Shown here one piece after another: positions 6,833-29,178 of a stretch of DNA of 64,000 bases. The notes beneath the pieces were generated by a model. It ran no database searches. It was not told the DNA's origin and saw only the letters and a list, made by a program, of their open reading frames with translations. A program made the position numbers and the translations under genes. Within the stretch, counting starts at the first letter, position 1. Every line of letters starts with the position of its first letter. This DNA is from an uncultured virus (IMG/VR IMGVR_UViG_3300002835_000135) (Duplodnaviria > Heunggongvirae > Uroviricota > Caudoviricetes), in IMG/VR virus record IMGVR_UViG_3300002835_000135. One strand, given 5' to 3'.

Positions 6833-7684
6833 TTACTTATTATTAAGACCAATCGCTATTTGAGTGTATTTTCTTATTGGGTCGACGTCAAATTTGATAG
6901 TTAAAAAATTAAAATCTCTAATAACACCAATCTTGAATGTTGTAAAGTTTGTATTCGACTTTGGAAAAGATATTCCACCAATAGCATCTCTACCTTGATA
7001 TCTCAAAATTTCACGCCCAAAACCAATCATACCGTGAATTCCCAATTTGTTAATTCTTTTACCCGCGCCCAAATAAATTGCTGACTCTTTTTTAAAATCA
7101 TTATCACTAATTGGGAAGTCAGCTATAGCAATGTTGCCATATGGGTAATATTTATTTTGATCAATCTCATATGTCATCACATAATCTAAAATAAAATATC
7201 CCTTTTTACCTCCGACTGCTCCCCAATAAGACACTTGCTTATTATTGGTATGTCCAAAACCAAAAGTGGTATATGGCGATTCCTTTCTAATCGTGTCTCT
7301 TTTACCACTTTCATATATGTGAATTACACTTCTTTGTCTCCACCCTAAATCATCATACCAAATATATGGTAATGGTTGATACCACCCCCAATTACCCCAA
7401 TAATACCCAAATTGATTTTGCCTGTTCCAATTTTGAACACGTATTCTACCACGCGGGTCTGGATTAGGTTGTAATTGTTGTTGTGGTGGATTATTTCTCC
7501 AATTACTCACATCATTTCTTTGTGGGGCTGATTGTTGTGTTTTTGGTGTTTCAACTCTCGGTTGTGGTGTTGATTGTTGCGGTGGATTAGTTCTCCATGT
7601 TGATACCTGTCCGAACATTAAAGTTGGGAATAATAAAACTAAAAATAAAATTGTTTTCATACTGTTTTTTTTAAATTTTTTCAT
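6833..7684 (-). CDS. Secreted protein with Pro/Gln-rich N-region and probable beta-barrel
   Basis: Signal peptide; alternating beta-strand pattern at the C-terminus. Confidence 0.55.
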   Translation of the reverse strand: MKKFKKNSMKTILFLVLLFPTLMFGQVSTWRTNPPQQSTPQPRVETPKTQQSAPQRNDVSNWRNNPPQQQLQPNPDPRGRIRVQNWNRQNQFGYYWGNWGWYQPLPYIWYDDLGWRQRSVIHIYESGKRDTIRKESPYTTFGFGHTNNKQVSYWGAVGGKKGYFILDYVMTYEIDQNKYYPYGNIAIADFPISDNDFKKESAIYLGAGKRINKLGIHGMIGFGREILRYQGRDAIGGISFPKSNTNFTTFKIGVIRDFNFLTIKFDVDPIRKYTQIAIGLNNK

Positions 7685-7917
7685 AATATATTTTTTAAAA
7701 TAACTCTATCCAATTCTTCAGGTCTTAATGCTAAAGTTGATTCTACGTGACCACTTCCAGATAGAATATTAACCAAGTATAATCCTAACTTTTTTTCACT
7801 TATTTCAATTTGTTGCCCACATATAAAGCCCATCTCCATCATTTTTAACCTCAAACAAGGGACGCAATTTTCACAATCAACTTTTTGTGGTACATCTATA
7901 ACTTCACACACTCTCAT
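7681..7917 (-). CDS. FeoA (SH3-like) domain protein
   Basis: LRLKMMEMGF..GQQIEI...LALRPEE resembles FeoA. Confidence 0.65.
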   Translation of the reverse strand: MRVCEVIDVPQKVDCENCVPCLRLKMMEMGFICGQQIEISEKKLGLYLVNILSGSGHVESTLALRPEELDRVILKNIL

Positions 7918-17535: not shown

Positions 17536-18071
17536 TTTTTAGTTGTTAATAATTTATTAATTAATGTTTCACAAGTTTTCTTAGTGGCGGAAGAAAGTGC
17601 TTGTTGATTTATTTTACCACTACCCTCATCAGTTATTAAAGTTGATGTTGATATTTCGGTGCTAGATTCCTCTGCGACCGCTTCTTTTATTTTTTTACCA
17701 TTTTTATCACTTAGTGTACCCCTCATAGTTACTAGAGTTTCCTCAACGTCCGAATGGAATACTGAAATGTTTCTTTTTGTTCTGTTTACATCAAAAAACA
17801 AAATTTCAACATTCAAAACATAATCAGCGTTTTCTAACGACTCAACAATCGCAAAATCTTTATCTTGTAAGATTTCTTGGAAAATGTTTTTACACCCAAA
17901 TGCCAAGTTTTTATTAGCCGTTAGTCGACCTATTTTAATTTTGTTCTCAACACTAGCTACATATACATTTTTTTGTTGTGGCGTTCTATTATCCGTAAAC
18001 GGGATTAATAACAAAAAAAGGCACAATAATGGTAGTAACGATACATACAAACTGCCGGAATTATATTTCAT
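17532..18071 (-). CDS. Membrane-anchored/secreted protein, CsgG/LptE-like fold possible
   Basis: N-terminal hydrophobic segment; ADYVLNVEI. Confidence 0.5.
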   Translation of the reverse strand: MKYNSGSLYVSLLPLLCLFLLLIPFTDNRTPQQKNVYVASVENKIKIGRLTANKNLAFGCKNIFQEILQDKDFAIVESLENADYVLNVEILFFDVNRTKRNISVFHSDVEETLVTMRGTLSDKNGKKIKEAVAEESSTEISTSTLITDEGSGKINQQALSSATKKTCETLINKLLTTKK

Positions 18072-18254
18072 ATCAATAAATACTCGGCAAGGCAACTTAG
18101 GTATATATATTGCCGGAAAATTGCCCGAAATATGTTATAATATAATATATGTTTAACACCCCTTATCAGACCTTATTGGGAATACTTTACACATTATTTG
18201 GTTTTTGCTTTACATTTTATAAAAATCGTTTTACCTTTAATAAAAAATAGAGAT

Positions 18255-19037
18255 ATGTCAAATTTTAAACATCTTAGTGACTTAGAAGTCCAGCAAATTA
18301 CATTTGACTGGAGACATCGCGGATTTACTGTTTTAGAGTTATTAACCGAGAATGAATGTGATGAAATAAACGAGGAATTGAATAGGTTAAGAAACGAAAG
18401 AACCGGTACCGAAGCGCCAGACGGTAAAACATGGGGCGAGTGGGACCCATTTGCTTATCCGCATAAACTTTCAGATAAATTGGCGAAACTATTTGCGCAC
18501 CCTAAAGTATTGGAAGCCGTGGAGTTTTTAATGGAAGGTGAAATCCAGGGTATGCAAAGTTGGTGTTATTTTAAACCGCCAGGACAATTAGGTAGAGACC
18601 AACATCAAAATGCGTTTTATACAAAATGTGGTCATAACGAAATTATTAACACTGCATTAGCATTAGATAATCATGACCCAGAAAATGGTGCTGTGTGGAA
18701 CTATGAGGGTTCTCATCGTTTACCAGTATTACCAATTGAGGTGGATGAGGAACGAACAAAAACAAACCCAGCGTTTTGGAGTAATGAAAGAGGTAAACCA
18801 TGTGTAATGCCTGAAGGACACGACTTCCGTAAGGTGGAAGGTTACTTAAGAAAAGGTCAAGTGGTGTTACTGCACTCGCATTGTGTTCACGGATCAGAAG
18901 CAAATAACTCAAATAGAATGAGAAGAAACTTCTTAGGTGGTTATCTTAAAAAAGGCGCTAATTTCTCAAAAGGTGGACATATGAAACGCGAACCAATTGA
19001 TATGTATGAATTAAGAAAAAACCACTGGGGTGAGTAA
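18255..19037 (+). CDS. Phytanoyl-CoA dioxygenase (PhyH)-family 2OG-Fe(II) oxygenase
   Basis: FKPPG, HQN, ALD...ENG...GSH, HGSEAN.S..RR; start moved to MSNF. Confidence 0.85.
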   Translation: MSNFKHLSDLEVQQITFDWRHRGFTVLELLTENECDEINEELNRLRNERTGTEAPDGKTWGEWDPFAYPHKLSDKLAKLFAHPKVLEAVEFLMEGEIQGMQSWCYFKPPGQLGRDQHQNAFYTKCGHNEIINTALALDNHDPENGAVWNYEGSHRLPVLPIEVDEERTKTNPAFWSNERGKPCVMPEGHDFRKVEGYLRKGQVVLLHSHCVHGSEANNSNRMRRNFLGGYLKKGANFSKGGHMKREPIDMYELRKNHWGE

Positions 19038-19074
19038 TTTTTAAACTTTTCTTTATTTTACGAATACTTATTAG

Positions 19075-19082
19075 TATCTTTG
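19075..19082 (+). promoter_or_regulatory. Bacteroidota-type -7 promoter element upstream of leader 1
   Basis: TATCTTTG matches TAnnTTTG. Confidence 0.6.
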
Positions 19083-19111
19083 CAAAAAGATTTAAACATT
19101 AAACAAATTCA

Positions 19112-19210
19112 ATGAGACAACAAAAACATACAATGTCGTTTATTATCTGCTCAAAATGGGCGGATGAGCGCGCTATGTCCATATGTCTCGATGATACTGA
19201 TGTCGGTTAA
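19112..19210 (+). CDS. Leader peptide 1 (32 aa), putative attenuator of tRNA array 1
   Basis: MRQQKHTMSFIICSKWADERAMSICLDDTDVG; codons match array-1 tRNAs; followed by a terminator. Confidence 0.8.
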   Translation: MRQQKHTMSFIICSKWADERAMSICLDDTDVG

Positions 19211-19235
19211 ATAAAAGTTTAACTTAAAATATTAG

Positions 19236-19266
19236 AAAACCTCGGGACAAAATCTCGGGGTTTTTT
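19236..19266 (+). terminator. Intrinsic terminator between leader 1 and tRNA array 1
   Basis: AAAACCTCGGGA-caaaa-TCTCGGGGTTTT + T run. Confidence 0.85.
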
Positions 19267-19349
19267 GTTTTATATGAGTTTTGGCTGGTTATAATTTTTT
19301 ATACTCAGCCAAAAGTGCCAAAAAATTAACGATTTGGCACAATATAAAT

Positions 19350-19419
19350 GGGCCGGATGTCAATGGCAGACCACCTGATTTGCAATCAGAGTGAAAGGGT
19401 TCGATTCCCTACGTGTCCA
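19350..19419 (+). tRNA. tRNA-Ala(UGC), acceptor stem imperfect
   Basis: Loop TT-TGC-AA, G3:U70, A73, GTTCGA; two acceptor mismatches. Confidence 0.65.
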
Positions 19420-19426
19420 CAGAAAT

Positions 19427-19500
19427 TGAAATATAGCTCAGTTGGTTAGAGCGTCATCCTGATACGGTGAATGTCGATGGTTCGAGTCCATCTATTTCAA
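19427..19500 (+). tRNA. tRNA-Ile(GAU)
   Basis: Cloverleaf, CT-GAT-AC. Confidence 0.9.
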
Positions 19501-19505
19501 CATTT

Positions 19506-19578
19506 GGAACTTTTGTATAGCTGGTGCGTACGTCGGACTGAAAATCCGAAGGAACAAGTTCGATTCTTGTAGGTTCCA
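19506..19578 (+). tRNA. tRNA-Phe(GAA)
   Basis: Cloverleaf, CT-GAA-AA. Confidence 0.9.
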
Positions 19579-19584
19579 CATAAT

Positions 19585-19658
19585 GACCTCGTAGCTCAGT
19601 TGGTTAGAGCACATCACTTTTAATGATGGGGCCGACAGTTCGAATCTGTCCGGGGTCA
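19585..19658 (+). tRNA. tRNA-Lys(UUU)
   Basis: Cloverleaf, CT-TTT-AA. Confidence 0.92.
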
Positions 19659-19663
19659 CACAC

Positions 19664-19734
19664 GCGGGTATGGTGCAACGGCAGCATACGGGTCTCCAAA
19701 ACCCTCGATGGGAGTTCGAATCTCTCTACCCGTG
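19664..19734 (+). tRNA. tRNA-Trp(CCA)
   Basis: Cloverleaf, CT-CCA-AA, G73. Confidence 0.9.
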
Positions 19735-19741
19735 CAAATAA

Positions 19742-19813
19742 GGTCTCTTGGTGTAACGGATAGCACGAAACACTACGGATGTTTTGGTAAAGGTTCGAAT
19801 CCTTTAGAGACCT
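19742..19813 (+). tRNA. tRNA-Arg(ACG)
   Basis: Cloverleaf, CT-ACG-GA. Confidence 0.9.
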
Positions 19814-19868
19814 CGATGTTCACAAAAGTTGCTTGTTCACGGTTCGTGAACAGAGAACAAAAGTGAAC

Positions 19869-19960
19869 AACACCGCCAAAGTCGGAAGTAAAACACCGCC
19901 AAAGTCGGAAGTAAAACACCGCCAAAGTCGGAAGTAAAACACCGCCAAAGTCGGAAGTAA
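19869..19960. repeat. Perfect tandem repeat, 4 x 23 bp
   Basis: AACACCGCCAAAGTCGGAAGTAA x4, no spacers. Confidence 0.95.
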
Positions 19961-19963
19961 TTA

Positions 19964-20034
19964 GTCAGGTTGGCCGAGTGGCTAGGCAGAGGTCTGCAAA
20001 ACCTCGTACATTGGTTCGAATCCAATACCTGACT
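19964..20034 (+). tRNA. tRNA-Cys(GCA)
   Basis: Cloverleaf, CT-GCA-AA, U73. Confidence 0.92.
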
Positions 20035-20036
20035 CT

Positions 20037-20113
20037 GTGATTGATGCTCGTATGGTAGAGCACTAGCTTGTGGCGCTAGAATAAAGCGAGTTCGAATCTC
20101 GTCAATCACCCCA
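20037..20113 (+). tRNA. tRNA-His(GUG)
   Basis: TT-GTG-GC loop, C73, encoded CCA. Confidence 0.88.
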
Positions 20114-20116
20114 TAT

Positions 20117-20184
20117 TGCGGGGAGAATGGTTTCCCACCGGTCTCATAAGCCGAGTGTTCCAGGTTCGACTCCTGGCCCCGCAA
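20117..20184 (+). tRNA. tRNA-Met(CAU) with shortened D arm
   Basis: TGCGGGG/CCCCGCA acceptor, CT-CAT-AA, GTTCGA. Confidence 0.75.
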
Positions 20185-20195
20185 CAAAAATGTAT

Positions 20196-20226
20196 TTTGA
20201 ATTTTAAAAAATTTAATTTATATTTG
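20196..20226 (+). promoter_or_regulatory. Bacteroidota-type promoter inside array 1
   Basis: TTTG-N19-TATATTTG. Confidence 0.6.
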
Positions 20227-20227
20227 T

Positions 20228-20416
20228 ATAACAGGTGACGACGGTGGTGAAACCCCACTGTCTATAAATCTCAACACCCGCCTTGATTCGCGGTATTATA
20301 GCGGTGAGAGTAGAGTTACTACAAGTCGGGAATAATTACCCCAATGACGAAAGTGTAGCCACCAACGTAGGGATATGTTGGTTATGATGTACGAATGGGT
20401 GCGAAAAACTTGTTAT
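20228..20416 (+). ncRNA. Unassigned structured RNA (~190 nt)
   Basis: Closing stem ATAACAGGT/ACTTGTTAT with several internal hairpins; no ORF. Confidence 0.5.
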
Positions 20417-20422
20417 TTTTTT

Positions 20423-20499
20423 TTGATACTAACTCAACGAGGACTTTGTCAACCAGAGCTATGACTCGGATGGTGCAACTTAAGGTGAGTTAGAATCAA
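20423..20499 (+). ncRNA. Unassigned structured RNA (~75 nt)
   Basis: Closing stem TTGATACTAACTCA/TGAGTTAGAATCAA. Confidence 0.4.
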
Positions 20500-20503
20500 T
20501 TTT

Positions 20504-20577
20504 GGATTGTTGGTGAAGTTGGTTATCATGCTACCCTGTCACGGTAGAGTTCACGGGTTCGAGTCCCGTACAGTCCG
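20504..20577 (+). tRNA. tRNA-Asp(GUC)
   Basis: Cloverleaf, CT-GTC-AC, G73. Confidence 0.92.
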
Positions 20578-20580
20578 CAA

Positions 20581-20671
20581 ATCATATCTTCAGGTACCCA
20601 TACAGCGGTGAGATGGGCTAAGTTAGATACAATTCCTCGGAGCTGGGAGTAGAATGTCTGTTTGATGTGAT
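20581..20671 (+). ncRNA. Unassigned structured RNA (~90 nt)
   Basis: Closing stem ATCATATC/GATGTGAT with two internal hairpins. Confidence 0.4.
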
Positions 20672-20676
20672 AATTT

Positions 20677-20762
20677 GGAGAGATGGCAGAGTTGGTCTAT
20701 CGCGTCGGTCTTGAAAACCGAAGTTCTGAAAGGAACCGTGGGTTCGAATCCTACTCTCTCCG
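20677..20762 (+). tRNA. tRNA-Ser(UGA)
   Basis: Long variable arm, CT-TGA-AA, G73. Confidence 0.93.
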
Positions 20763-20963
20763 CACGATTCGTTTAGTCGTCGAATAATATGCCCAATATG
20801 ATGAGAAACGGTTTGACAACCGTATGGGAACGTACATAGACGTATAGGAATAACGTCTGGGTTTATCAGCCCGACCTCGTGAGGACGAAATGATTATTCC
20901 TAACCTGACATTTGTCGGGGACAACTAAGGCACCTGTAAGCTGGATAAATTATGGTGTCACTT

Positions 20964-21035
20964 GCTCAGTTCGACTAAGGGTTAGGTCACCTCCCTTTCA
21001 CGGAGGTAATACGGGTTCGAATCCCGTACTGAGTA
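20964..21035 (+). tRNA. tRNA-Glu(UUC)
   Basis: Cloverleaf, CT-TTC-AC. Confidence 0.9.
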
Positions 21036-21113
21036 CAATCTTTTTATATATTAAACTATTGATTCCCAATATTTTATTTTGTATTTTTACCATATTATTA
21101 ATATTTATAATAT

Positions 21114-21416
21114 ATGATAGATAAAATCACATTATCGTTAATGTTATTTTTTAACACATTAACATCCTCTATCGACCCAAGTTTTTCCGACGAAAGAAAG
21201 ACCTACAATCAAATTAAAAAAGAGATTAAAGCTCTTGAAAGAAAAATTGAATGGGTTGAAGCAACAGATGATAATTACGCTAGCAGGGCCGTCAAAACCA
21301 AAGAAATCACGGACGAGATTACCAAATTGAATGGTAAAATTGTAAAGATTGAGAAGGTTGTTATTTTAAAAGATAAGTGGGCTAAGGAAGATTCCTTAAC
21401 CAAATCAAAAAAATGA
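21114..21416 (+). CDS. Hypothetical coiled-coil protein with N-terminal hydrophobic segment
   Basis: 100-aa ORF after TATTTATA. Confidence 0.6.
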   Translation: MIDKITLSLMLFFNTLTSSIDPSFSDERKTYNQIKKEIKALERKIEWVEATDDNYASRAVKTKEITDEITKLNGKIVKIEKVVILKDKWAKEDSLTKSKK

Positions 21417-21862
21417 AAAAAATTATTTTAATGCTAACGTTACTTTTGGGAGTGGAAGTCGTGGCAAATGGACAAGAGTGGTTTATAACCGCCACTCGAA
21501 AAGGTGGTCCATCAGATGGTTATATAACAGGTGCTTTTATGAAGAAAGGTTGGGGATTCTATGCTGGTCTTCCATATGGCGAATTGGGTGGTCAAAACGG
21601 TGGAATTGTAATTCCCCCTGGTGTCAACACCAAAACAGGAAACGTATCCGATAACATGAAGTTTGGTGTTCTTAGACAAGTAAAAGAGGACAAAGCGATT
21701 GTTGGGTTTGGATTACAACCAACACTTAATGGAAATAAACCTAATTTTCTTATAATGTACAATCCACTTAGACCAAGTAGTGTTATAAATCTATGGACAA
21801 TTGGAAATATAATTGGTGATGATTTCACATTAGGGCTTGGATTATCATATAAAGTGAAATAA
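21413..21862 (+). CDS. Secreted small beta-barrel-like protein
   Basis: Signal peptide; GLGLSYKVK end. Confidence 0.55.
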   Translation: MKKIILMLTLLLGVEVVANGQEWFITATRKGGPSDGYITGAFMKKGWGFYAGLPYGELGGQNGGIVIPPGVNTKTGNVSDNMKFGVLRQVKEDKAIVGFGLQPTLNGNKPNFLIMYNPLRPSSVINLWTIGNIIGDDFTLGLGLSYKVK

Positions 21863-21887
21863 TTTTATTAACTATTGATAATTTTAA

Positions 21888-21895
21888 TATATTTG
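21888..21895 (+). promoter_or_regulatory. Bacteroidota-type -7 promoter element upstream of leader 2
   Basis: TATATTTG. Confidence 0.6.
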
Positions 21896-21913
21896 CATAT
21901 ACTTATTAAAACG

Positions 21914-22021
21914 ATGAAGAATATAAATAACATATCAACGAGTACGAGACCCCTTAATAATGGTAATGGGTATGGTGTGCAACCGTTATGTTACATATGT
22001 TCGGATATCAATAAAGGATAA
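21914..22021 (+). CDS. Leader peptide 2 (35 aa), putative attenuator of tRNA array 2
   Basis: MKNINNISTSTRPLNNGNGYGVQPLCYICSDINKG; codons match array-2 tRNAs; followed by a terminator. Confidence 0.8.
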   Translation: MKNINNISTSTRPLNNGNGYGVQPLCYICSDINKG

Positions 22022-22044
22022 ATAAATTTTTTAAACTAATATCG

Positions 22045-22077
22045 AGACCCGAACAACTAAAAATGTTCGGGTTTTTT
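22045..22077 (+). terminator. Intrinsic terminator between leader 2 and tRNA array 2
   Basis: AGACCCGAACA-actaaaaa-TGTTCGGGTTT + T run. Confidence 0.88.
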
Positions 22078-22097
22078 GTTTTACAATTTATTATCTT

Positions 22098-22123
22098 TAT
22101 ATTTGAAAAGGAGTTCTTTGACA
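22098..22123 (+). promoter_or_regulatory. Possible -7 promoter element plus boxA-like antitermination site
   Basis: TATATTTG then GTTCTTTGACA. Confidence 0.5.
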
Positions 22124-22138
22124 TATTGAGAAAGAAAT

Positions 22139-22223
22139 GCTCGAGTGGTGTAATGGTAGCCACGAGGGACTTAAAATCCCTTGGACAGAAACGTCCGTGC
22201 CGGTTCGAGTCCGGCCTCGAGTA
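22139..22223 (+). tRNA. tRNA-Leu(UAA)
   Basis: Long variable arm, CT-TAA-AA. Confidence 0.93.
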
Positions 22224-22224
22224 C

Positions 22225-22334
22225 AATGTAATGACCTAGTAATAGGTGACGGAACAGACGCTATGTATGAAATGGAAACTTTTGAAGCGCGTACAAAGGT
22301 GCTGATTAGATACAAACCGTACAGACATTACATT
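22225..22334 (+). ncRNA. Unassigned structured RNA (~110 nt)
   Basis: Closing stem AATGTAATG/CATTACATT; internal ACCTA-gtaa-TAGGT hairpin. Confidence 0.45.
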
Positions 22335-22339
22335 AAATT

Positions 22340-22413
22340 GGTTCCATAGCTCAATTGGATAGAGCACAATCCTTCTAAGATTGGGGTTTCAGGTTCGATC
22401 CCTGATGGGATCA
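22340..22413 (+). tRNA. tRNA-Arg(UCU)
   Basis: Cloverleaf, CT-TCT-AA. Confidence 0.92.
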
Positions 22414-22421
22414 CAATAAAT

Positions 22422-22496
22422 AGGGTAATGGACTAATGGCTAAGTCACTTGCTTTGGGAGCAAGGCATCATGGAGGTTCGAGTCCTCTTTACCCTA
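22422..22496 (+). tRNA. tRNA-Pro(UGG)
   Basis: Cloverleaf, TT-TGG-GA. Confidence 0.9.
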
Positions 22497-22501
22497 CAAT
22501 C

Positions 22502-22574
22502 GCTTTCTTAGCTCAGTTGGTAGAGCACATCACTGTTAATGATGGAGTCGGGGGATCGTGACCCTCAGGGAGCG
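22502..22574 (+). tRNA. tRNA-Asn(GUU)
   Basis: Cloverleaf, CT-GTT-AA; variant T loop GATCG. Confidence 0.85.
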
Positions 22575-22581
22575 CAATAAT

Positions 22582-22662
22582 GGCCGAGTGGTGTAATGGG
22601 AGCCACGCTAGTTTTAGGCACTAGTGTCGAAAGACGTGAGAGTTCGAATCTCTCCTTGGTCA
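22582..22662 (+). tRNA. tRNA-Leu(UAG)
   Basis: Variable arm, TT-TAG-GC. Confidence 0.92.
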
Positions 22663-22667
22663 CATAT

Positions 22668-22748
22668 TGGGATATCGCATAGTGGCAATTGCGGCTGACT
22701 GTAAATCAGCTCTCTTTGAGTTCGGCGGTTCGAGTCCGTCTATCCCAA
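22668..22748 (+). tRNA. tRNA-Tyr(GUA)
   Basis: Variable arm, CT-GTA-AA. Confidence 0.92.
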
Positions 22749-22872
22749 CATAAAAATATGAATAGAGAACAATATTTACAAGAAACTTTTCCAACTAAAG
22801 ACGGAAAAACTTACATCCAATCATTAGATGAATTTAATTCAAAAAAAGAGGAAGATGTAAAAGAAGATACAT

Positions 22873-22986
22873 GCCGGAGTGGCGGAATAAACAACGATGC
22901 TGACGAGTAATGTTGAGACGTGTCGCATTCTAGAAGATGAGTACTCCGAAAGGACCTCGTGGAGGTAATCAATCCTTTCTCCGGCA
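22873..22986 (+). ncRNA. Enlarged tRNA-Leu-like RNA with D-loop hairpin insert and broken anticodon arm
   Basis: GCCGGAG/CTCCGGC-A acceptor, TGGCGGAA..AGACG D arm, variable hairpin, non-canonical T loop. Confidence 0.6.
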
Positions 22987-23041
22987 CCTATTAATCGTCA
23001 ATATAGACGATAACAGATTTTATCGTTAGATTAAACGATAT

Positions 23042-23115
23042 GGACTTATAGCTCAGATGGTTAGAGCAGGTCGCTCATAACGACAAGGTCACAGGTTCGA
23101 ATCCTGTTTGGTCCA
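23042..23115 (+). tRNA. tRNA-Ile2(CAU), lysidine type reading AUA
   Basis: CT-CAT-AA; GGACTTA-TAGCTCAG...GGTCC-A body resembles bacterial Ile2 rather than Met. Confidence 0.75.
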
Positions 23116-23120
23116 CACAT

Positions 23121-23193
23121 AGAAGATTAGCTCAGTTGGGAGAGCGCTTGTTTTACATGCAAGATGTCACTGGTTCGATTCCGGTATCTTCTA
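23121..23193 (+). tRNA. tRNA-Val(UAC)
   Basis: Cloverleaf, TT-TAC-AT. Confidence 0.9.
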
Positions 23194-23199
23194 CAATAA

Positions 23200-23271
23200 G
23201 CTCCTAAAGCATTGCAGGCGATGCGCATGACTTGTAATCATGATAACTTGGTTCGATTCCGAGTGGGAGCT
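23200..23271 (+). tRNA. tRNA-Thr(UGU)
   Basis: Cloverleaf, CT-TGT-AA. Confidence 0.88.
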
Positions 23272-23325
23272 CATGGGACTCCGATGGAAGTCCGCAAGAA
23301 GAATAGATGTTTTTCATCCATCAAA

Positions 23326-23398
23326 GCGAGTATAGTATAATGGCTTATTATGCCTTCCTTCCAAGTAGGATATGTCAGTTCGATTCTGACTACTCGCT
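23326..23398 (+). tRNA. tRNA-Gly(UCC)
   Basis: Cloverleaf, CT-TCC-AA, U73. Confidence 0.9.
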
Positions 23399-23461
23399 CA
23401 ATCATCAAAGAGACCGCTAAATCGAGTTAGTGAAAATCTACATTCTCAATGATGATTAAAT

Positions 23462-23532
23462 TGTCCTTTGGTGTAACGGTAGCACAACTGTTTTTGGTGC
23501 AGTTTGTTTAGGTTCGAATCCTAGAGGGACAA
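23462..23532 (+). tRNA. tRNA-Gln(UUG)
   Basis: U1:A72, TT-TTG-GT. Confidence 0.9.
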
Positions 23533-23536
23533 CAAT

Positions 23537-23622
23537 GGAGAGTTACCCAAGTTGGTGAAGGGGGCAGTTTGCTAAACTGTTAGGTCGTTTGCGGCGCAAG
23601 GGTTCGAGTCCCTTACTCTCCG
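23537..23622 (+). tRNA. tRNA-Ser(GCU)
   Basis: Long variable arm, TT-GCT-AA, G73. Confidence 0.92.
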
Positions 23623-23637
23623 CAGTAAAAGTACCCT

Positions 23638-24237
23638 ATGAAACACACAAAAAATGAAATGATTTTTCTTAATCATGTAAAGACATCATGTAAAATCTAT
23701 GGAATTAAATGTCTATTAAAAAAAACAAAAACAGTTAAAATGGACGACAACGTTAAATGTTCTGGTTATTTTGATGAAACTGGAAAAGTATTAGTTGTTG
23801 CAATGAATCGACCAGATTGGGTTGAAATTTTAGCGCATGAATATTCGCATTTAACTCAATGGGTTGAAAAAATACCAGTATGGTTAGACGCGGAAAACTC
23901 ATTAGGTAAGGTATGGGAATGGTTAGATGGTAAAAACGTTAGAAACATTGATACGCACATAGCGGTAGCGCGTGATTTAGAATTAGATAACGAAAAAAGG
24001 TCCGTAAAAGTCATTAAGAAATTTAATTTAAAAGTGGATCTTGAAAATTACGTGAGAAAAGCGAACGCGTATGTAATGTTTTACAATTGGCTTAGAAAAA
24101 CCAGAAAATGGTCAAGACCCAATAATAGCCCATATAAAAATAAAAATGTTAAATCTGCGATGTCGACAAAATTCAATATGAATTATAAAACGTTATCGCC
24201 TAGATTAGAAAAAATATTTAGAGAAGAAGACATCTAA
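23638..24237 (+). CDS. HExxH zinc metallopeptidase-like protein
   Basis: LAHEYSH, downstream ELDNE. Confidence 0.65.
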   Translation: MKHTKNEMIFLNHVKTSCKIYGIKCLLKKTKTVKMDDNVKCSGYFDETGKVLVVAMNRPDWVEILAHEYSHLTQWVEKIPVWLDAENSLGKVWEWLDGKNVRNIDTHIAVARDLELDNEKRSVKVIKKFNLKVDLENYVRKANAYVMFYNWLRKTRKWSRPNNSPYKNKNVKSAMSTKFNMNYKTLSPRLEKIFREEDI

Positions 24238-24243
24238 ATAAAT

Positions 24244-24414
24244 TGTCAGGTGTTGAAATTTGATTGGTACGCGTATCAATCTAGGCAGACAAGCGCTCCT
24301 GTCTCGAGCGTGGTGACAAAGAAATAGGTAATTAATATGGGGTAGACCACCAAGCCGGCCGGCAGATGTTAATTACTGAATCTCACCGTGGTGGTTCGAG
24401 TCCATCCCTGACAG
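24244..24414 (+). ncRNA. Giant (171 nt) tRNA-like RNA with expanded D loop and variable region
   Basis: TGTCAGG/CCTGACA-G acceptor; CGCTC-ctgtctc-GAGCG arm; GGTGG-TTCGAGT-CCATC T arm. Confidence 0.7.
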
Positions 24415-24444
24415 CTAAACAATAATTATAATAAATGAAATGAA

Positions 24445-24906
24445 ATGAAAAAATTTAGAACTCTCTATGGAACTCCAATTCCAGATGCTATTGAATACAT
24501 CAGAGAGTACATCTCAACAAGAGAGAATGTGGAAATTCTTATCGGTTCTGACTCACAATGTTACGGAAATAAAAAAACAATCTTTGGTGTTGTTGTTGCA
24601 TTATATACTAAAGGTAAAGGCGCTCACGTGTTATGTACGCGTGAAACATTACCTATGGAACATAACACACCTTCGCGTTTACTAGGTGAAGTTTGGAAAT
24701 CTTTAGAGATGGCTGAATTTTTAAAAGAAAATGGTTTACCTAAACCAACCTGGATTGATATAGACCTTAATCCAGACCCAAAATACAAATCAAACTCAGT
24801 TCTTAGACAAGCTGTTGGTATGGTTGAAGGTATGGGTTACAAGGTAAGGTATAAGCACGTTGGGGCATTAATGACTTATGCTGCAAATCATTTAGTTAGG
24901 TTATAG
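24445..24906 (+). CDS. RNase H-like YkuK (DUF458) family protein
   Basis: IGSDSQ, RL..EV.KS, IDIDLN, YAANH. Confidence 0.8.
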   Translation: MKKFRTLYGTPIPDAIEYIREYISTRENVEILIGSDSQCYGNKKTIFGVVVALYTKGKGAHVLCTRETLPMEHNTPSRLLGEVWKSLEMAEFLKENGLPKPTWIDIDLNPDPKYKSNSVLRQAVGMVEGMGYKVRYKHVGALMTYAANHLVRL

Positions 24907-24963
24907 TTTTTTTTTCGGATATTATTCATTATATTAGATAACAATTAAACATGGAGGTAAACT

Positions 24964-25185
24964 ATGAAATGTATTAAAGCAATCAAATCAACCAAAAACA
25001 CTGAGGTTGGTACTATGACAAGAATAAACGATGTTGATGCCGAATCTAAAGTTAAAACTGGATCATGGGCGTATATTCCAAAAACGGAATATAAATCGTG
25101 GAAAAATGGACAACCTAAAGCGGAAGTCACTAATGTTAGTCACGACATGGGCGGAAGCTATGAAGTGAAAAAACGTAAAAAATAA
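24964..25185 (+). CDS. Hypothetical protein
   Basis: 73-aa ORF. Confidence 0.6.
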   Translation: MKCIKAIKSTKNTEVGTMTRINDVDAESKVKTGSWAYIPKTEYKSWKNGQPKAEVTNVSHDMGGSYEVKKRKK

Positions 25186-26011: not shown

Positions 26012-26042
26012 AAAAACACTTGATTTTTTGACAAACATTACT

Positions 26043-26075
26043 TATCTTTGCAAAAGAAATAAATTAGTTCTTTGA
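26043..26075 (+). promoter_or_regulatory. -7 promoter element and boxA-like site before the large ncRNA
   Basis: TATCTTTG (26043-50), GTTCTTTGA (26067-75). Confidence 0.55.
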
Positions 26076-26085
26076 TTTAAAAATA

Positions 26086-26885
26086 TTGGCCGCCTATGGT
26101 CAACAAAATAAACCATGAAAGTGGGATAAAGTGGTCTGGTTTGGTTAAATCAGATTGCGGTTTCAGCAATGGAACTTGAGTAGGCAAACAGAATATCATT
26201 GAACCTTAATTACTGAGGGTAACACTGTAGGGAAAGTGGTTCGATGATCAAGCAATCCGAGTTGTTTGGTTGAGGTGGGAACACCAATAAGAATAATCTG
26301 TAGAGTTATTACAAGAAGTAGGATTTCCAATCTTACAATTGTGTGATTCAATATGATGGGAATCTTAAAACCGAAAGGTATGGTGAAGTACGAGTGGTGT
26401 CGTTATCATCCTTAATTAAACTCTACCAAGGGTTTAGTTTTGAAGGGGTCCAAAAATATGGTAGCAGGGATGTTACAGAGAGTAGTTTAGTATCGGGTCG
26501 TTCAAAAGATGACTTGGCTGGCAGATGGGCCGCTACTTTCCAAATTCGGAACCAACTCAATTGTTAATTCAGGTTTAACAACTTAAAAAACAAGGAAAAG
26601 TGCCCATCAGTCGTTGGAGACAGGTGACTACACAGTCGAGAGGGGTTCTCGGCCATGAAGGGTCCCAAGCCCAACATGATTTTTAAGAAAGTTCTCTAAT
26701 CCCGCAAGGATGCGTTGGGGTGGCAACCTCGAAGAGTAATGAGTATTAAAAGAGTATTCGACGACTAAAGGATTGGTTAATCTAATTGACCGTCACTGAT
26801 TGGTACTACTCAAAAGGTAGTGGATAAGAGAAGAAAAGATAATGTCTCTAAAGTCAATCGCTAAATGGTGTAATCTCAGCCCTTT
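26086..26885 (+). ncRNA. Large structured ncRNA, probably GOLLD
   Basis: ~800 nt without a credible ORF, many GNRA-capped hairpins, tRNA-array context; 3' end ...GTAATCTCAG recalled from GOLLD RNAs. Confidence 0.7.
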
Positions 26886-28765: not shown

Positions 28766-29176
28766 GGGGGTGCCTGGCATTGATTTCAGGTATCGGGAAT
28801 AAATGGCACGTAGTCAGAATTCATCTATGACTTAAATCTACGGTGAAACAATTCAAACGGCAACGTTTACAACAACATGGAAATTGCAGGTTTACTTGCA
28901 ACTTCCAAAGTAGCTGCCTAACCAAGTTAGGTACTACAATCGGGTCGACGAGCATGTAACCTAGGAACAGAAGCTCTTAAGGTGTGATTTCTACCCAAAA
29001 AGAAATAAACGGTCTTGTTCAGAGGGCTACCGTAACAAAAGTGAACTCGACACAGTTGTTGGTAACGATGTCAAAATAGGAACCAAATATTTGTCAGTTG
29101 TGAACTAATTGAATAAACGTGTAGTCATTTATTGTTGAGCAGGAAAGACACGGGTTCGAGTCCCGTCACCTCCACC
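28766..29176 (+). ncRNA. ssrA: tmRNA; predicted tag (A)GNVYNNMEIAGLLATSKVAA
   Basis: GGGGGTG/CACCTCC-A acceptor with G3:U, T arm GGGTTCGAGTCCC, internal ORF 28859-28921 ending AA-stop. Confidence 0.92.
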
Positions 29177-29178
29177 TT

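What the first reader, a model, noticed from the sequence alone, without database searches (positions are those of the whole stretch)
21914..22077. Leader 2: codons 3-25 cover all 12 array-2 tRNAs, with a duplicated terminator arm
Codons 3-25 are AAT ATA AAT AAC ATA TCA ACG AGT ACG AGA CCC CTT AAT AAT GGT AAT GGG TAT GGT GTG CAA CCG TTA. Array 2 is Leu-UAA, Arg-UCU, Pro, Asn, Leu-UAG, Tyr, Ile2, Val, Thr, Gly, Gln, Ser-GCU; only TCA is foreign. TGTTCGG (21998-22004) is an exact copy of the terminator 3' arm (22064-70), so it competes for CCGAACA (22049-55); GATAT/ATATC can extend the helix. Several sensor codons end in G or C (ACG, CCC, GGG, GTG, CCG), unusual in this AT-rich genome and possibly chosen as slow, sensitive codons (inference). 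Apart from CATATGT the leader shows no clear similarity to leader 1, yet follows the same logic.
Basis: partly seen in the sequence, partly recalled or inferred. Interest (0 to 1): 0.9.

Follow-up and report, generated by a model that had tools for sequence, protein, structure and literature searches.

The report
Codon-matched leader attenuator before phage tRNAs
A 35-codon mini-gene in a giant lake phage is spelled almost only in the codons read by the 12 tRNA genes downstream and ends in a switchable transcription stop, so the phage probably transcribes more of those tRNAs when ribosomes decode their codons slowly.

Summary
The ORF at 21914-22021 is real. Its codons 3-25 cover all 12 array-2 tRNAs with one foreign codon (TCA). 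TGTTCGG (21998-22004) copies the terminator's 3' arm.

This is the shortest array-2-covering codon window in all six frames of the 64 kb. Leader 1 is likewise the shortest for array 1.

- **Family evidence:** I found 28 further distinct leader-2 ORFs in viral and metagenome contigs. ATG, stop and frame are kept, synonymous changes are in excess, and most replacements stay within the array-2 codon set.
- **Natural swap:** relatives that carry Pro/Asn/Leu/Gln tRNAs behind leader 1 carry those codons in leader 1.
- **Switch:** folding and one three-way compensatory lineage support a 1:2 / 2:3 / 3:4 switch.

Best reading (about 0.65): a ribosome-stalling attenuator that feeds tRNA supply back on tRNA transcription.

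The main caveat is a promoter-like box plus a GTTCTTTGA motif between terminator and array. It is conserved even in relatives that lack leader 2, so the leader probably boosts array 2 and does not solely gate it. No expression data were usable.

I found no paper on such control. This scan has noted the same idea before on other DNA, in at least 54 genomes, including leader-1 relatives.

The parts
21875..21903 (+). Promoter-like region in front of leader 2. It holds TTGATA, a 17-nt spacer and TATACT, and overlaps a Bacteroidota-type TAnnTTTG box (TATATTTG, 21888-21895).
   Evidence: scores it 10 of 12. TATACTTAT is invariant in 27 of 27 relatives. That it functions as a promoter is inferred.
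21914..22021 (+). Leader 2 ORF, 35 codons: MKNINNISTSTRPLNNGNGYGVQPLCYICSDINKG.
   Evidence: ATG, stop and frame are kept in 23 complete distinct ORFs plus 5 divergent ones. The gaps MAFFT placed inside the ORF are 3 nt long.
21920..21988 (+). Sensor codons 3-25. 22 of 23 are read by array-2 tRNAs and all 12 tRNAs are covered.
21919..21934 (+). Region 1: 5' arm of the 1:2 hairpin (the anti-antiterminator).
   Evidence: hairpin -20.8 kcal/mol. In one search the helix is 96.3% paired, with 2 pairs changed on both sides.
21987..22002 (+). 3' arm of the 1:2 hairpin. It overlaps region 2.
21998..22004 (+). Region 2: TGTTCGG, the antiterminator strand and an exact copy of the terminator's 3' arm.
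22044..22055 (+). Region 3: terminator 5' arm. CCGAACA at 22049-22055 pairs either with region 2 or with region 4.
22064..22077 (+). Region 4: terminator 3' arm followed by the T-run.
22098..22105 (+). TATATTTG, a second promoter-like box (P2) between terminator and array.
   Evidence: A TAnnTTTG box stands here in 20 of 32 leader-bearing regions and in 5 of 5 leaderless relatives.
22113..22121 (+). GTTCTTTGA motif. It is invariant in relatives and recurs after a promoter upstream of the GOLLD RNA. It resembles boxA, but that comparison is recalled and untested.
22139..23623 (+). tRNA array 2, 12 tRNAs.
19112..19267 (+). Sister element: leader 1 ORF (19112-19210) and its terminator (19233-19267). 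It precedes array 1 (19350-21036, 12 tRNAs including Ala-tgc and a CAT tRNA).

Best explanation
Leader 2 is a translated leader-peptide transcription attenuator. Its sensor is a panel of codons, roughly one or more for each tRNA of the array downstream.

Proposed working (all steps inferred):
1. Transcription starts at the promoter near 21890, or reads in from the upstream gene.
2. If ribosomes run through the ORF unhindered, or do not translate it at all, the ORF's 5' part pairs with its 3' part (the 1:2 hairpin), or the terminating ribosome sits against TGTTCGG. Either way CCGAACA is left free to pair with the downstream TGTTCGGG, and RNA polymerase stops at the T-run (22072-22077).
3. If a ribosome stalls with its A site on any of codons 2 to about 25, because the matching charged tRNA is scarce, the 1:2 hairpin cannot form while TGTTCGG stays uncovered. 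TGTTCGG then pairs with CCGAACA, the terminator cannot form, and transcription runs on through the GTTCTTTGA motif into the 12 tRNA genes.
4. Newly made tRNAs speed up decoding of the leader and close the loop.

A separate promoter-like box sits after the terminator, so this input most likely adds to a basal expression of array 2 and is not its only source.

Shown here: the sequence anatomy, the codon match, the conservation pattern and the predicted folds. Not shown: translation, termination, and any response to stalling.
For: 1. **Codon match.** The leader holds the top-ranked covering window of 416 in six frames, and 594 of 2,000,000 random strings do as well. The window's two leaders have opposite codon sets (Fisher test: sensor parts p=4e-9, whole ORFs p=4e-4).
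2. **Family of 23 complete distinct leader-2 ORFs**. 20 have no out-of-set codon from codon 3 to the TTA codon, and 3 have one. L143/L152 have 27 in-set codons in a row.
3. **Signs of translation.** ATG and stop are kept. MAFFT places 3-nt gaps inside the ORF but gaps of varied length in the spacer. Of 28 variant codon states in the sensor, 16 are synonymous against 19% expected (p=8e-6). Of the 12 replacements, 10 stay in-set against 43% expected (p=0.005).
4. **Natural swap.** Homologous leader-1 frames share the same ends and terminator but have different middles that follow their arrays. SFIICSKWADERA goes with Ala-Ile-Phe-Lys-Trp-Arg-Cys-His. NQLNWNEQP goes with Pro-Asn-Trp-Leu-Gln. KHTTSSTVCTTWHQECD goes with Cys-Trp-His-Thr. 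Match to own array is 0.67 against about 0.47 for other arrays (permutation p=5e-5).
5. **No room for a promoter in leader-1 relatives.** The first tRNA begins within about 5-15 nt of the terminator's T-run (read off the printed sequences), so those arrays can only be made by readthrough.
6. **Switch.**
   - Unmasked, the transcript up to 22063 folds as the 1:2 hairpin with region 3 free; with the ORF masked, TGTTCGG pairs with CCGAACA.
   - In the stall scan, P(antiterminator) is at least 0.85 for A-site codons 2-16 and 22-25 and 0 from codon 27 on. The end of the sensor therefore coincides with the point where a ribosome would cover region 2.
   - The antiterminator is 99.4% paired in 24 sequences. 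L192/L195, found through the sensor motif and not through region 2, changed regions 2, 3 and 4 together: AGTTCGG / CCGAACT / AGTTCGG.
   - The terminator is 98.6% paired with 2 compensatory pairs. The 1:2 helix has 2 compensatory pairs.
7. **Stop-codon spacing.** The stop codon stays 11-14 nt after region 2 in all variants (read off).
Against: 1. **A second promoter is likely.** TATATTTG plus GTTCTTTGA lie between terminator and tRNA-Leu. The same pair follows the homologous terminator in 5 of 5 relatives that lack leader 2, where that terminator simply ends the upstream gene. Array 2 therefore very likely has its own promoter, and terminator 2 is older than the leader.
2. **No usable expression data.** RNA-library contigs are short, of low depth, unstranded, and come from relatives.
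3. **Covariation is thin.** For the antiterminator there is one compensatory lineage and one counter-example (L191 loses the end pair). Region 2 was fixed by my search pattern in most sequences.
4. **The 1:2 hairpin does not dominate.** At equilibrium, without a ribosome, the truncated transcript splits 0.57 antiterminator to 0.44 hairpin. The argument needs co-transcriptional order.
5. **Mid-sensor stalls.** For codons 17-21 the simple mask model gives only 0.57. A steric argument has to be added.
6. **A recurring foreign codon.** An out-of-set TCN Ser codon recurs near codons 8-11 in the window, L174, L190, L191 and L192.
7. **The CAT tRNA is only assumed to be Ile2**.
8. **Non-independent tests.** The sequences are related, so the permutation and binomial tests overstate independence.
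Confidence: 0.65

Rival explanations
1. The terminator merely ends the upstream gene or a small standalone transcript, and array 2 is expressed only from the promoter-like box at 22098. The ORF is a small protein gene or is not functional, and its codon make-up is a by-product of an Asn/Gly/Thr-rich peptide in an AT-rich genome.
For: Relatives without leader 2 have the same terminator directly after the upstream gene and the same TATATTTG/GTTCTTTGA pair before tRNA-Leu. The in-set run of 17 is not exceptional in the window. There are no expression data.
Against: It does not explain several results:
- The leader is the top-ranked covering window for its own array.
- Replacements stay within the array's codon set while residues are reshuffled, for example TSTRPL versus TLTSRPV or TLSTRPV.
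- Leader 1 rewrites its middle together with its array.
- An exact copy of the terminator arm sits in the ORF and co-varies in L192.
Confidence: 0.12
2. The leader does sense decoding of array-2 codons, but its output is not extra tRNA transcription. Readthrough might interfere with or prime the downstream promoter, or the terminated short RNA or peptide might be the active product.
For: A probable promoter lies only about 20 nt after the T-run, and the T-run's TTTG could double as its upstream element. The leader cassette was added to an existing terminator-promoter arrangement.
Against: In the sister family (leader 1) tRNAs follow the terminator directly, so readthrough is the only route to them. 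12 of 32 leader-bearing regions have lost the TAnnTTTG box against 0 of 5 leaderless ones. That is not significant, but it points to the leader promoter taking over.
Confidence: 0.13
3. The logic is reversed: brisk translation of the leader melts or prevents the terminator, so that plentiful tRNA raises tRNA transcription (positive feedback).
For: Coupled ribosomes can suppress terminators in general (recalled; PMC5021804 was seen only as a listing in one search).
Against: The stop codon lies 22 nt before the terminator stem (22021 versus 22044), out of reach of a terminating ribosome. A ribosome on codons 27-35 covers the antiterminator strand, not the terminator.
Confidence: 0.05

Closest known systems
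Leader-peptide transcription attenuators of amino-acid operons (trpL, hisL, leuL, thrL, pheL, and the multivalent ilv leaders). Named from established knowledge; no paper was read beyond listings.
   Same: A short translated ORF on the same transcript, regulatory codons, three alternative helices (1:2, 2:3, 3:4), an intrinsic terminator, and a stop codon placed so that a finishing ribosome blocks region 2.
   Different: The genes behind it are tRNAs, not enzymes. The sensor is a panel of up to 12 different tRNA species, mostly one to three codons each, and not a run of one amino acid. It is carried by a phage and is rewritten when tRNA genes move between arrays. Here a second promoter probably lies behind the terminator.
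pheST (pheM leader) attenuator of phenylalanyl-tRNA synthetase (recalled).
   Same: Leader-peptide attenuation applied to a component of the decoding machinery.
   Different: It controls a synthetase through one amino acid. It does not control tRNA genes through a multi-tRNA panel.
T-box riboswitches.
   Same: tRNA status decides between a terminator and an antiterminator.
   Different: T-boxes bind one uncharged tRNA directly and have no ORF. No T-box match appeared in 18500-24500 at E up to 1.
Codon-matched leaders before phage tRNA arrays noted earlier in this scan (e1-2978539, e1-5886956, e1-5943215, e1-5699919, e1-5699930 and others).
   Same: The same architecture and the same reading. 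e1-5699919 and e1-5699930 share words with leader 1 of this window.
   Different: Leader 2's sequence had no look-alike among earlier notes. It is a separate sequence family, inserted in front of an older gene terminator, and it has a promoter-like box behind it.

Membership tests
Leader-peptide transcription attenuator | Short ORF with conserved start, stop and frame upstream of the regulated genes on the same strand. | tested here: met
Leader-peptide transcription attenuator | Regulatory codons that correspond to what is regulated. | tested here: met
   22 of 23 codons are in-set and all 12 tRNAs are covered. The match is kept in relatives.
Leader-peptide transcription attenuator | Intrinsic terminator between leader and regulated genes. 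| tested here: met
   (-16.4 kcal/mol, T-run).
Leader-peptide transcription attenuator | Antiterminator helix that excludes the terminator and uses the 3' part of the ORF. | tested here: met
   The helix is 7 bp and 99.4% paired, with one compensatory lineage. Covariation is thin.
Leader-peptide transcription attenuator | Anti-antiterminator (1:2) that a stalled ribosome disrupts. | tested here: inconclusive
   The hairpin is predicted (-20.8 kcal/mol) with 2 compensatory pairs. At equilibrium it only ties with the antiterminator.
Leader-peptide transcription attenuator | The regulated genes depend on readthrough, with no promoter between terminator and genes. | tested here: not met
   TATATTTG plus GTTCTTTGA are conserved behind terminator 2 and are present in leaderless relatives. 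The feature is met in the leader-1 family.
Leader-peptide transcription attenuator | Readthrough rises when the cognate charged tRNA is scarce. | not testable with these tools
   This needs reporter or infection experiments.
T-box riboswitch | Match to the T-box leader model (specifier loop, T-box sequence). | tested here: not met
   No T-box row among the 38 matches at E up to 1 in 18500-24500.
boxA-type antitermination site (for GTTCTTTGA) | Sequence likeness to host rRNA-leader boxA and a position just after a stable-RNA promoter. | not tested
   The likeness is recalled. Text searches found nothing. The position after promoter-like boxes before array 2 and upstream of the GOLLD RNA was seen.

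The most novel reading that the evidence does not exclude
Large phages carry rewritable 'codon-panel' attenuators. Each tRNA array is headed by a mini-gene listing the codons of exactly the tRNAs it controls. The list is edited whenever tRNA genes move between arrays, so a shortage or cleavage of any one of up to a dozen host tRNAs (for instance by anticodon-nuclease defences) switches on the matching spare set. This would be a general tRNA-supply sensor, found in several unrelated sequence families (leaders 1 and 2 here, and others noted by this scan).
Probability: 0.5. Interest if true: 0.9.

Novelty: new variant of a known kind. Interest (0 to 1): 0.8.

Why it matters
Why phages carry tRNA genes, and how they time their expression, is an open question. 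The suggested answers are codon-usage compensation, replacement of degraded host tRNAs, and escape from tRNA-cleaving defences; these are recalled from the literature and were not read here.

A sensor written in the array's own codons would make that question directly testable. It predicts which shortage induces which array. It also offers a natural multi-input attenuator design, and it would extend leader-peptide attenuation from metabolism to the decoding machinery itself.

For annotation, such leaders predict the content of truncated arrays and the identity of ambiguous CAT tRNAs.

Tried and rejected
- **RNA evidence.** One search listed 11 runs, all with word shares of 0.09 or less. I laid four metatranscriptome runs. 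They gave only short contigs of relatives at low depth, without strand. Some span the terminator (X6 record 12, 21941-22106; X7 record 20, 21946-22083) or the gene-leader junction (X6 record 11). DNA carry-over cannot be excluded, so nothing is concluded from them.
- **Cultured relatives.** Megablast of 19000-24000 hit one unrelated tRNA. blastn of the leader region gave only 52-nt AT-rich matches at E 6e-3. tblastn of the PhyH-like neighbour found nothing.
- **The window's own assembly** is not held. G001 is the same virus, 100% identical, and so is not independent.
- **Relatives found through the neighbouring PhyH-like gene.** One search found 231 stretches and kept 80. Apart from the window's own virus, only L017, L026-28 and L065 had tRNAs nearby. 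L026 and L065 have no leader.
- **False pattern hits were dropped:** L105; L114 and L117; L122, L125, L133, L137, L142 and L144.
- **In-set run length as a statistic** was rejected, because 17 is matched elsewhere in the window.
- **The second-best array-2 covering window** (20298-20363) lies inside a conserved structured RNA with no ATG start. I treated it as chance.
- **boxA.** Two text searches gave no relevant paper, so the likeness stays a recollection.
- **P2 decay.** 12 of 32 leader-bearing regions have lost the box against 0 of 5 leaderless ones. This is suggestive only.
- **Met or Ile2 identity of the CAT tRNAs** could not be settled.

Full report
**Setting**

The window is AT-rich (33% G+C) and belongs to a very large uncultured virus. 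Identical or near-identical IMG/VR contigs reach 287 kb, and relatives reach 251-334 kb.

It carries two tRNA arrays on the + strand. ARAGORN at default settings finds 22 tRNAs. At a relaxed threshold it adds Ala-tgc at 19350 and a CAT tRNA at 20117. Rfam scores both just above its gathering score, at 29.7 and 33.4 bits.
- Array 1 (19350-21036) therefore holds Ala, Ile-gat, Phe, Lys, Trp, Arg-acg, Cys, His, CAT, Asp, Ser-tga and Glu.
- Array 2 (22139-23623) holds Leu-taa, Arg-tct, Pro, Asn, Leu-tag, Tyr, CAT, Val, Thr, Gly, Gln and Ser-gct.

Together the two arrays split almost the whole code. In the window's 45 ORFs of 150 aa or more, 46.5% of codons belong to array 1 (counted there without ATG) and 51.2% to array 2.

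**The observation**

- The ORF runs from ATG 21914 to TAA 22019-22021.
- Codons 3-25 are as written.
- TGTTCGG stands at 21998-22004 and again at 22064-22070.
- CCGAACA stands at 22049-22055.
- TATATTTG stands at 22098-22105.
- The terminator scan finds only two + strand terminators in 18000-25000, at 19233-19267 and 22044-22075. Each lies just upstream of an array.

The GATAT/ATATC pairing exists only across an internal loop. The listed G/C-ending codons are rare synonymous choices here, at 4-12%.

**Is the codon match more than chance?**

I scanned every stop-free stretch in all six frames of the 64 kb for the shortest run of codons that covers every tRNA of a set.
- For array 2, the minimum is 19 codons at 21932-21988, inside leader 2. 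It is the shortest of 416 minimal windows, and the next independent one is 22.
- For array 1, the minimum is 15 codons at 19127-19171, inside leader 1. It is the shortest of 123, and the next is 27.
- Random strings with the phage's codon usage reach these values in 594 of 2,000,000 trials (leader 2) and 2 of 2,000,000 trials (leader 1).
- The two leaders use opposite sets. Sensor parts count 16:1 against 1:22 (Fisher p=4e-9). Whole ORFs count 20:9 against 8:26 (p=4e-4).

One result goes against over-reading the match. A run of 17 in-set codons is not unusual on its own.

**Relatives of leader 2**

Exact-motif scans gave the following.
- Viral contigs: 7 stretches and 6 stretches.
- Metagenome contigs: 36 stretches.
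- A scan with a motif from the sensor itself: 15 stretches.
- After removing copies of the window's own virus and two chance hits (L114, L117), this leaves 24 distinct ORFs, one of them cut at a contig end, in 27 distinct regions.
- The sensor-motif scan added five more divergent ORFs: L190, L191, L192, L196 and L201.

All keep the ATG, the frame and a stop 11-14 nt after region 2. MAFFT places 3-nt gaps inside the ORF, while the spacer after the stop has gaps of varied length.

Of the 23 complete ORFs, 20 have no out-of-set codon between codon 3 and the TTA codon, and 3 have one: TCA in the window, and ATT in two others. L143/L152 have 27 in-set codons in a row.

Variant codon states in the sensor number 16 synonymous, 10 in-set replacements and 2 out-of-set. 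From single-base neighbours, 19% synonymous is expected, and 43% in-set among replacements. The p-values are 8e-6 and 0.005.

Residues are reshuffled (TSTRPL, TLTSRPV, TLSTRPV, QLLSNRPL), which does not look like a peptide selected for its own sequence.

Some results count against a perfect match. A TCN serine codon, which belongs to array 1, recurs near codons 8-11 in the window, L174, L190, L191 and L192. The tests also treat related sequences as independent.

**The natural swap (leader 1 family)**

Motif scans gave 27 distinct groups carrying the terminator anchor. 21 of them hold a leader-1-type ORF (two are the window's own virus). 6 are chance hits without tRNAs.

These leaders share the promoter, the first codons, the last ten codons and the terminator, but the middle differs with the array.
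- Class A: SFIICSKWADER(A/S) in the window, L124 and L143, and the related SFTICSKWADETR / SFTICTKWAEIRD in L136, L140 and L145, with Ala-Ile-Phe-Lys-Trp-Arg-Cys-His.
- Class B: NQLNWNEQP and variants with Pro-Asn-Trp-Leu-tag-Gln.
- L135: KHTTSSTVCTTWHQECD with Cys-Trp-His-Thr.
- L100 lacks both Leu-tag and the CTA codon.

So Pro, Asn, Leu-tag and Gln tRNAs sit behind leader 1 in class B, and their codons sit in leader 1. In the window they sit behind leader 2, and their codons sit in leader 2.

Across 17 loci, the middle codons match their own array at 0.67 and other arrays at about 0.47 (permutation p=5e-5). Low values come mostly from truncated arrays. The match is not perfect; for example, His or Trp codons occur without the tRNA in L098, L104 and L099.

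In most of these relatives the first tRNA starts within about 5-15 nt of the T-run (read off the printed sequences). That leaves no room for a promoter, so those arrays can only be made by reading through the terminator.

**The switch**
- The 21900-22085 RNA folds better than all 200 shuffles (z=-4.45).
- Up to 22063, before the 3' arm exists, the unmasked transcript forms a long hairpin between the ORF's 5' part (21919-21934) and its 3' part (21987-22002). Region 3 stays free.
- With the ORF masked, TGTTCGG pairs with CCGAACA.
- Energies: terminator -16.4, 1:2 hairpin -20.8, antiterminator duplex about -11.7 kcal/mol. The whole transcript scores -43.6 in the terminator state and -30.6 in the antiterminator state.

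I scanned a 28-nt ribosome mask along the ORF.

| A-site codon | P(antiterminator) |
|---|---|
| 2-16 | at least 0.92 |
| 17-21 | about 0.57-0.61 |
| 22-24 | 0.97 |
| 25 | 0.85 |
| 26 | 0.30 |
| 27 onward | 0 |

The mid-range value arises because the model lets a helix close around the masked loop, which a real ribosome would prevent. That correction is an inference. The in-set stretch therefore ends where a ribosome begins to cover region 2.

On alignments:
- The 1:2 helix is 96.3% paired with two pairs changed on both sides.
- The terminator is 98.6-100% paired with two compensatory pairs.
- The antiterminator is 99.4% paired.
- L192/L195, found through the sensor motif, changed regions 2, 3 and 4 together (AGTTCGG, CCGAACT, AGTTCGG). 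L191 changed region 2 alone and loses the end pair.
- Most other sequences were collected with a pattern that contains region 2, so their invariance there carries no weight.
- Without a ribosome, the truncated transcript is split at equilibrium, 0.57 to 0.44. The model therefore relies on the order of folding.

**The second promoter**

Five class-B relatives have no leader 2 at all. In them, the homologue of the 149-aa gene (21413-21862) is followed directly by a homologous terminator, then TATATTTG or TATGTTTG, then GTTCTTTGA, then tRNA-Leu-taa.

It follows that terminator 2 is older than the leader. The leader cassette (promoter plus ORF) was inserted between the gene and its terminator. The box at 22098 is very likely a working promoter.

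The box is kept in 20 of 32 leader-bearing regions and in 5 of 5 leaderless ones. GTTCTTTGA is nearly invariant (GTTCATTGA once). The same motif follows a promoter-like box at 26067, upstream of a GOLLD RNA. From memory it resembles boxA antitermination sites of rRNA operons, but I could not test this.

Leader 2 more probably adds a stall-inducible input, from its own promoter and from the upstream gene, to a basal expression of array 2.

**What is known**

The mechanism class is the classical leader-peptide attenuator (recalled). Four full-text searches turned up no paper that applies it to tRNA genes or to phage tRNA arrays. I saw only listings and the starts of abstracts.

No T-box match is present.

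This scan has noted the same idea before in at least 54 other genomes. These include relatives of leader 1 (e1-5699919 and e1-5699930). One note, e1-2978539, is marked as standing after a later check. None resembles leader 2's sequence. Those notes are not independent evidence, and I reached my reading before seeing them.

**Verdict**

The codon-matched, translated leader with a terminator/antiterminator switch is well supported by comparative data. Its regulatory output on array 2 is inferred, and is probably shared with a separate promoter. I rate it a new variant of a known kind of control, of high interest, still unpublished as far as my searches reach.

Noticed in passing
window 26478-26882 (+), with a promoter-like box and GTTCTTTGA at 26040-26075: A GOLLD RNA (Rfam RF02032, 318 bits) lies about 3 kb downstream of the tRNA arrays. 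About 400 nt upstream of it stands the same TAnnTTTG-plus-GTTCTTTGA pair that precedes array 2.
   Followed up: partly
window 28766-29177 (+): A phage-borne tmRNA (Rfam RF00023, 83.9 bits, full length). ARAGORN did not report it.
   Followed up: no
window 20185-20503 (+); L065 about 7555-7900: The 318-nt gap inside array 1 holds a strongly folded RNA (-86.6 kcal/mol). Its two ends are nearly identical to a stretch after tRNA-Thr in the distant relative L065. Rfam has no match. It also contains the second-best array-2 covering window, which I take as chance.
   Followed up: partly
window 22750-23041 (+): The 292-nt gap inside array 2 has a weak, sub-threshold match to the manA RNA motif (21.9 bits, E 0.017) and a 73-aa TTG-start ORF running in from tRNA-Tyr (22689-22910). 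Its nature is unknown.
   Followed up: no
window 19268-19349 (+): Between terminator 1 and tRNA-Ala the window has about 80 nt forming two hairpins (-26.9 kcal/mol). Relatives lack this stretch; in them the tRNA follows the T-run within about 5-15 nt.
   Followed up: partly
window 22113-22121; 26067-26075; L026 and L065: GTTCTTTGA(C/A)A follows promoter-like boxes before stable-RNA genes and some ORFs in this phage group. From memory it resembles boxA. It could recruit host antitermination factors.
   Followed up: partly
leader 1 (19112-19210) and the class-B leaders in L095 and others: Neighbouring codons sometimes mirror neighbouring tRNA genes: AAA TGG with Lys-Trp in the window, and AAT TGG with Asn-Trp in class B. 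This may be chance.
   Followed up: no
window about 24336 (+): ARAGORN at a relaxed threshold calls an extra Asn-gtt tRNA 712 nt after Ser-gct. Neither the default run nor Rfam reports it, so it is probably false.
   Followed up: no
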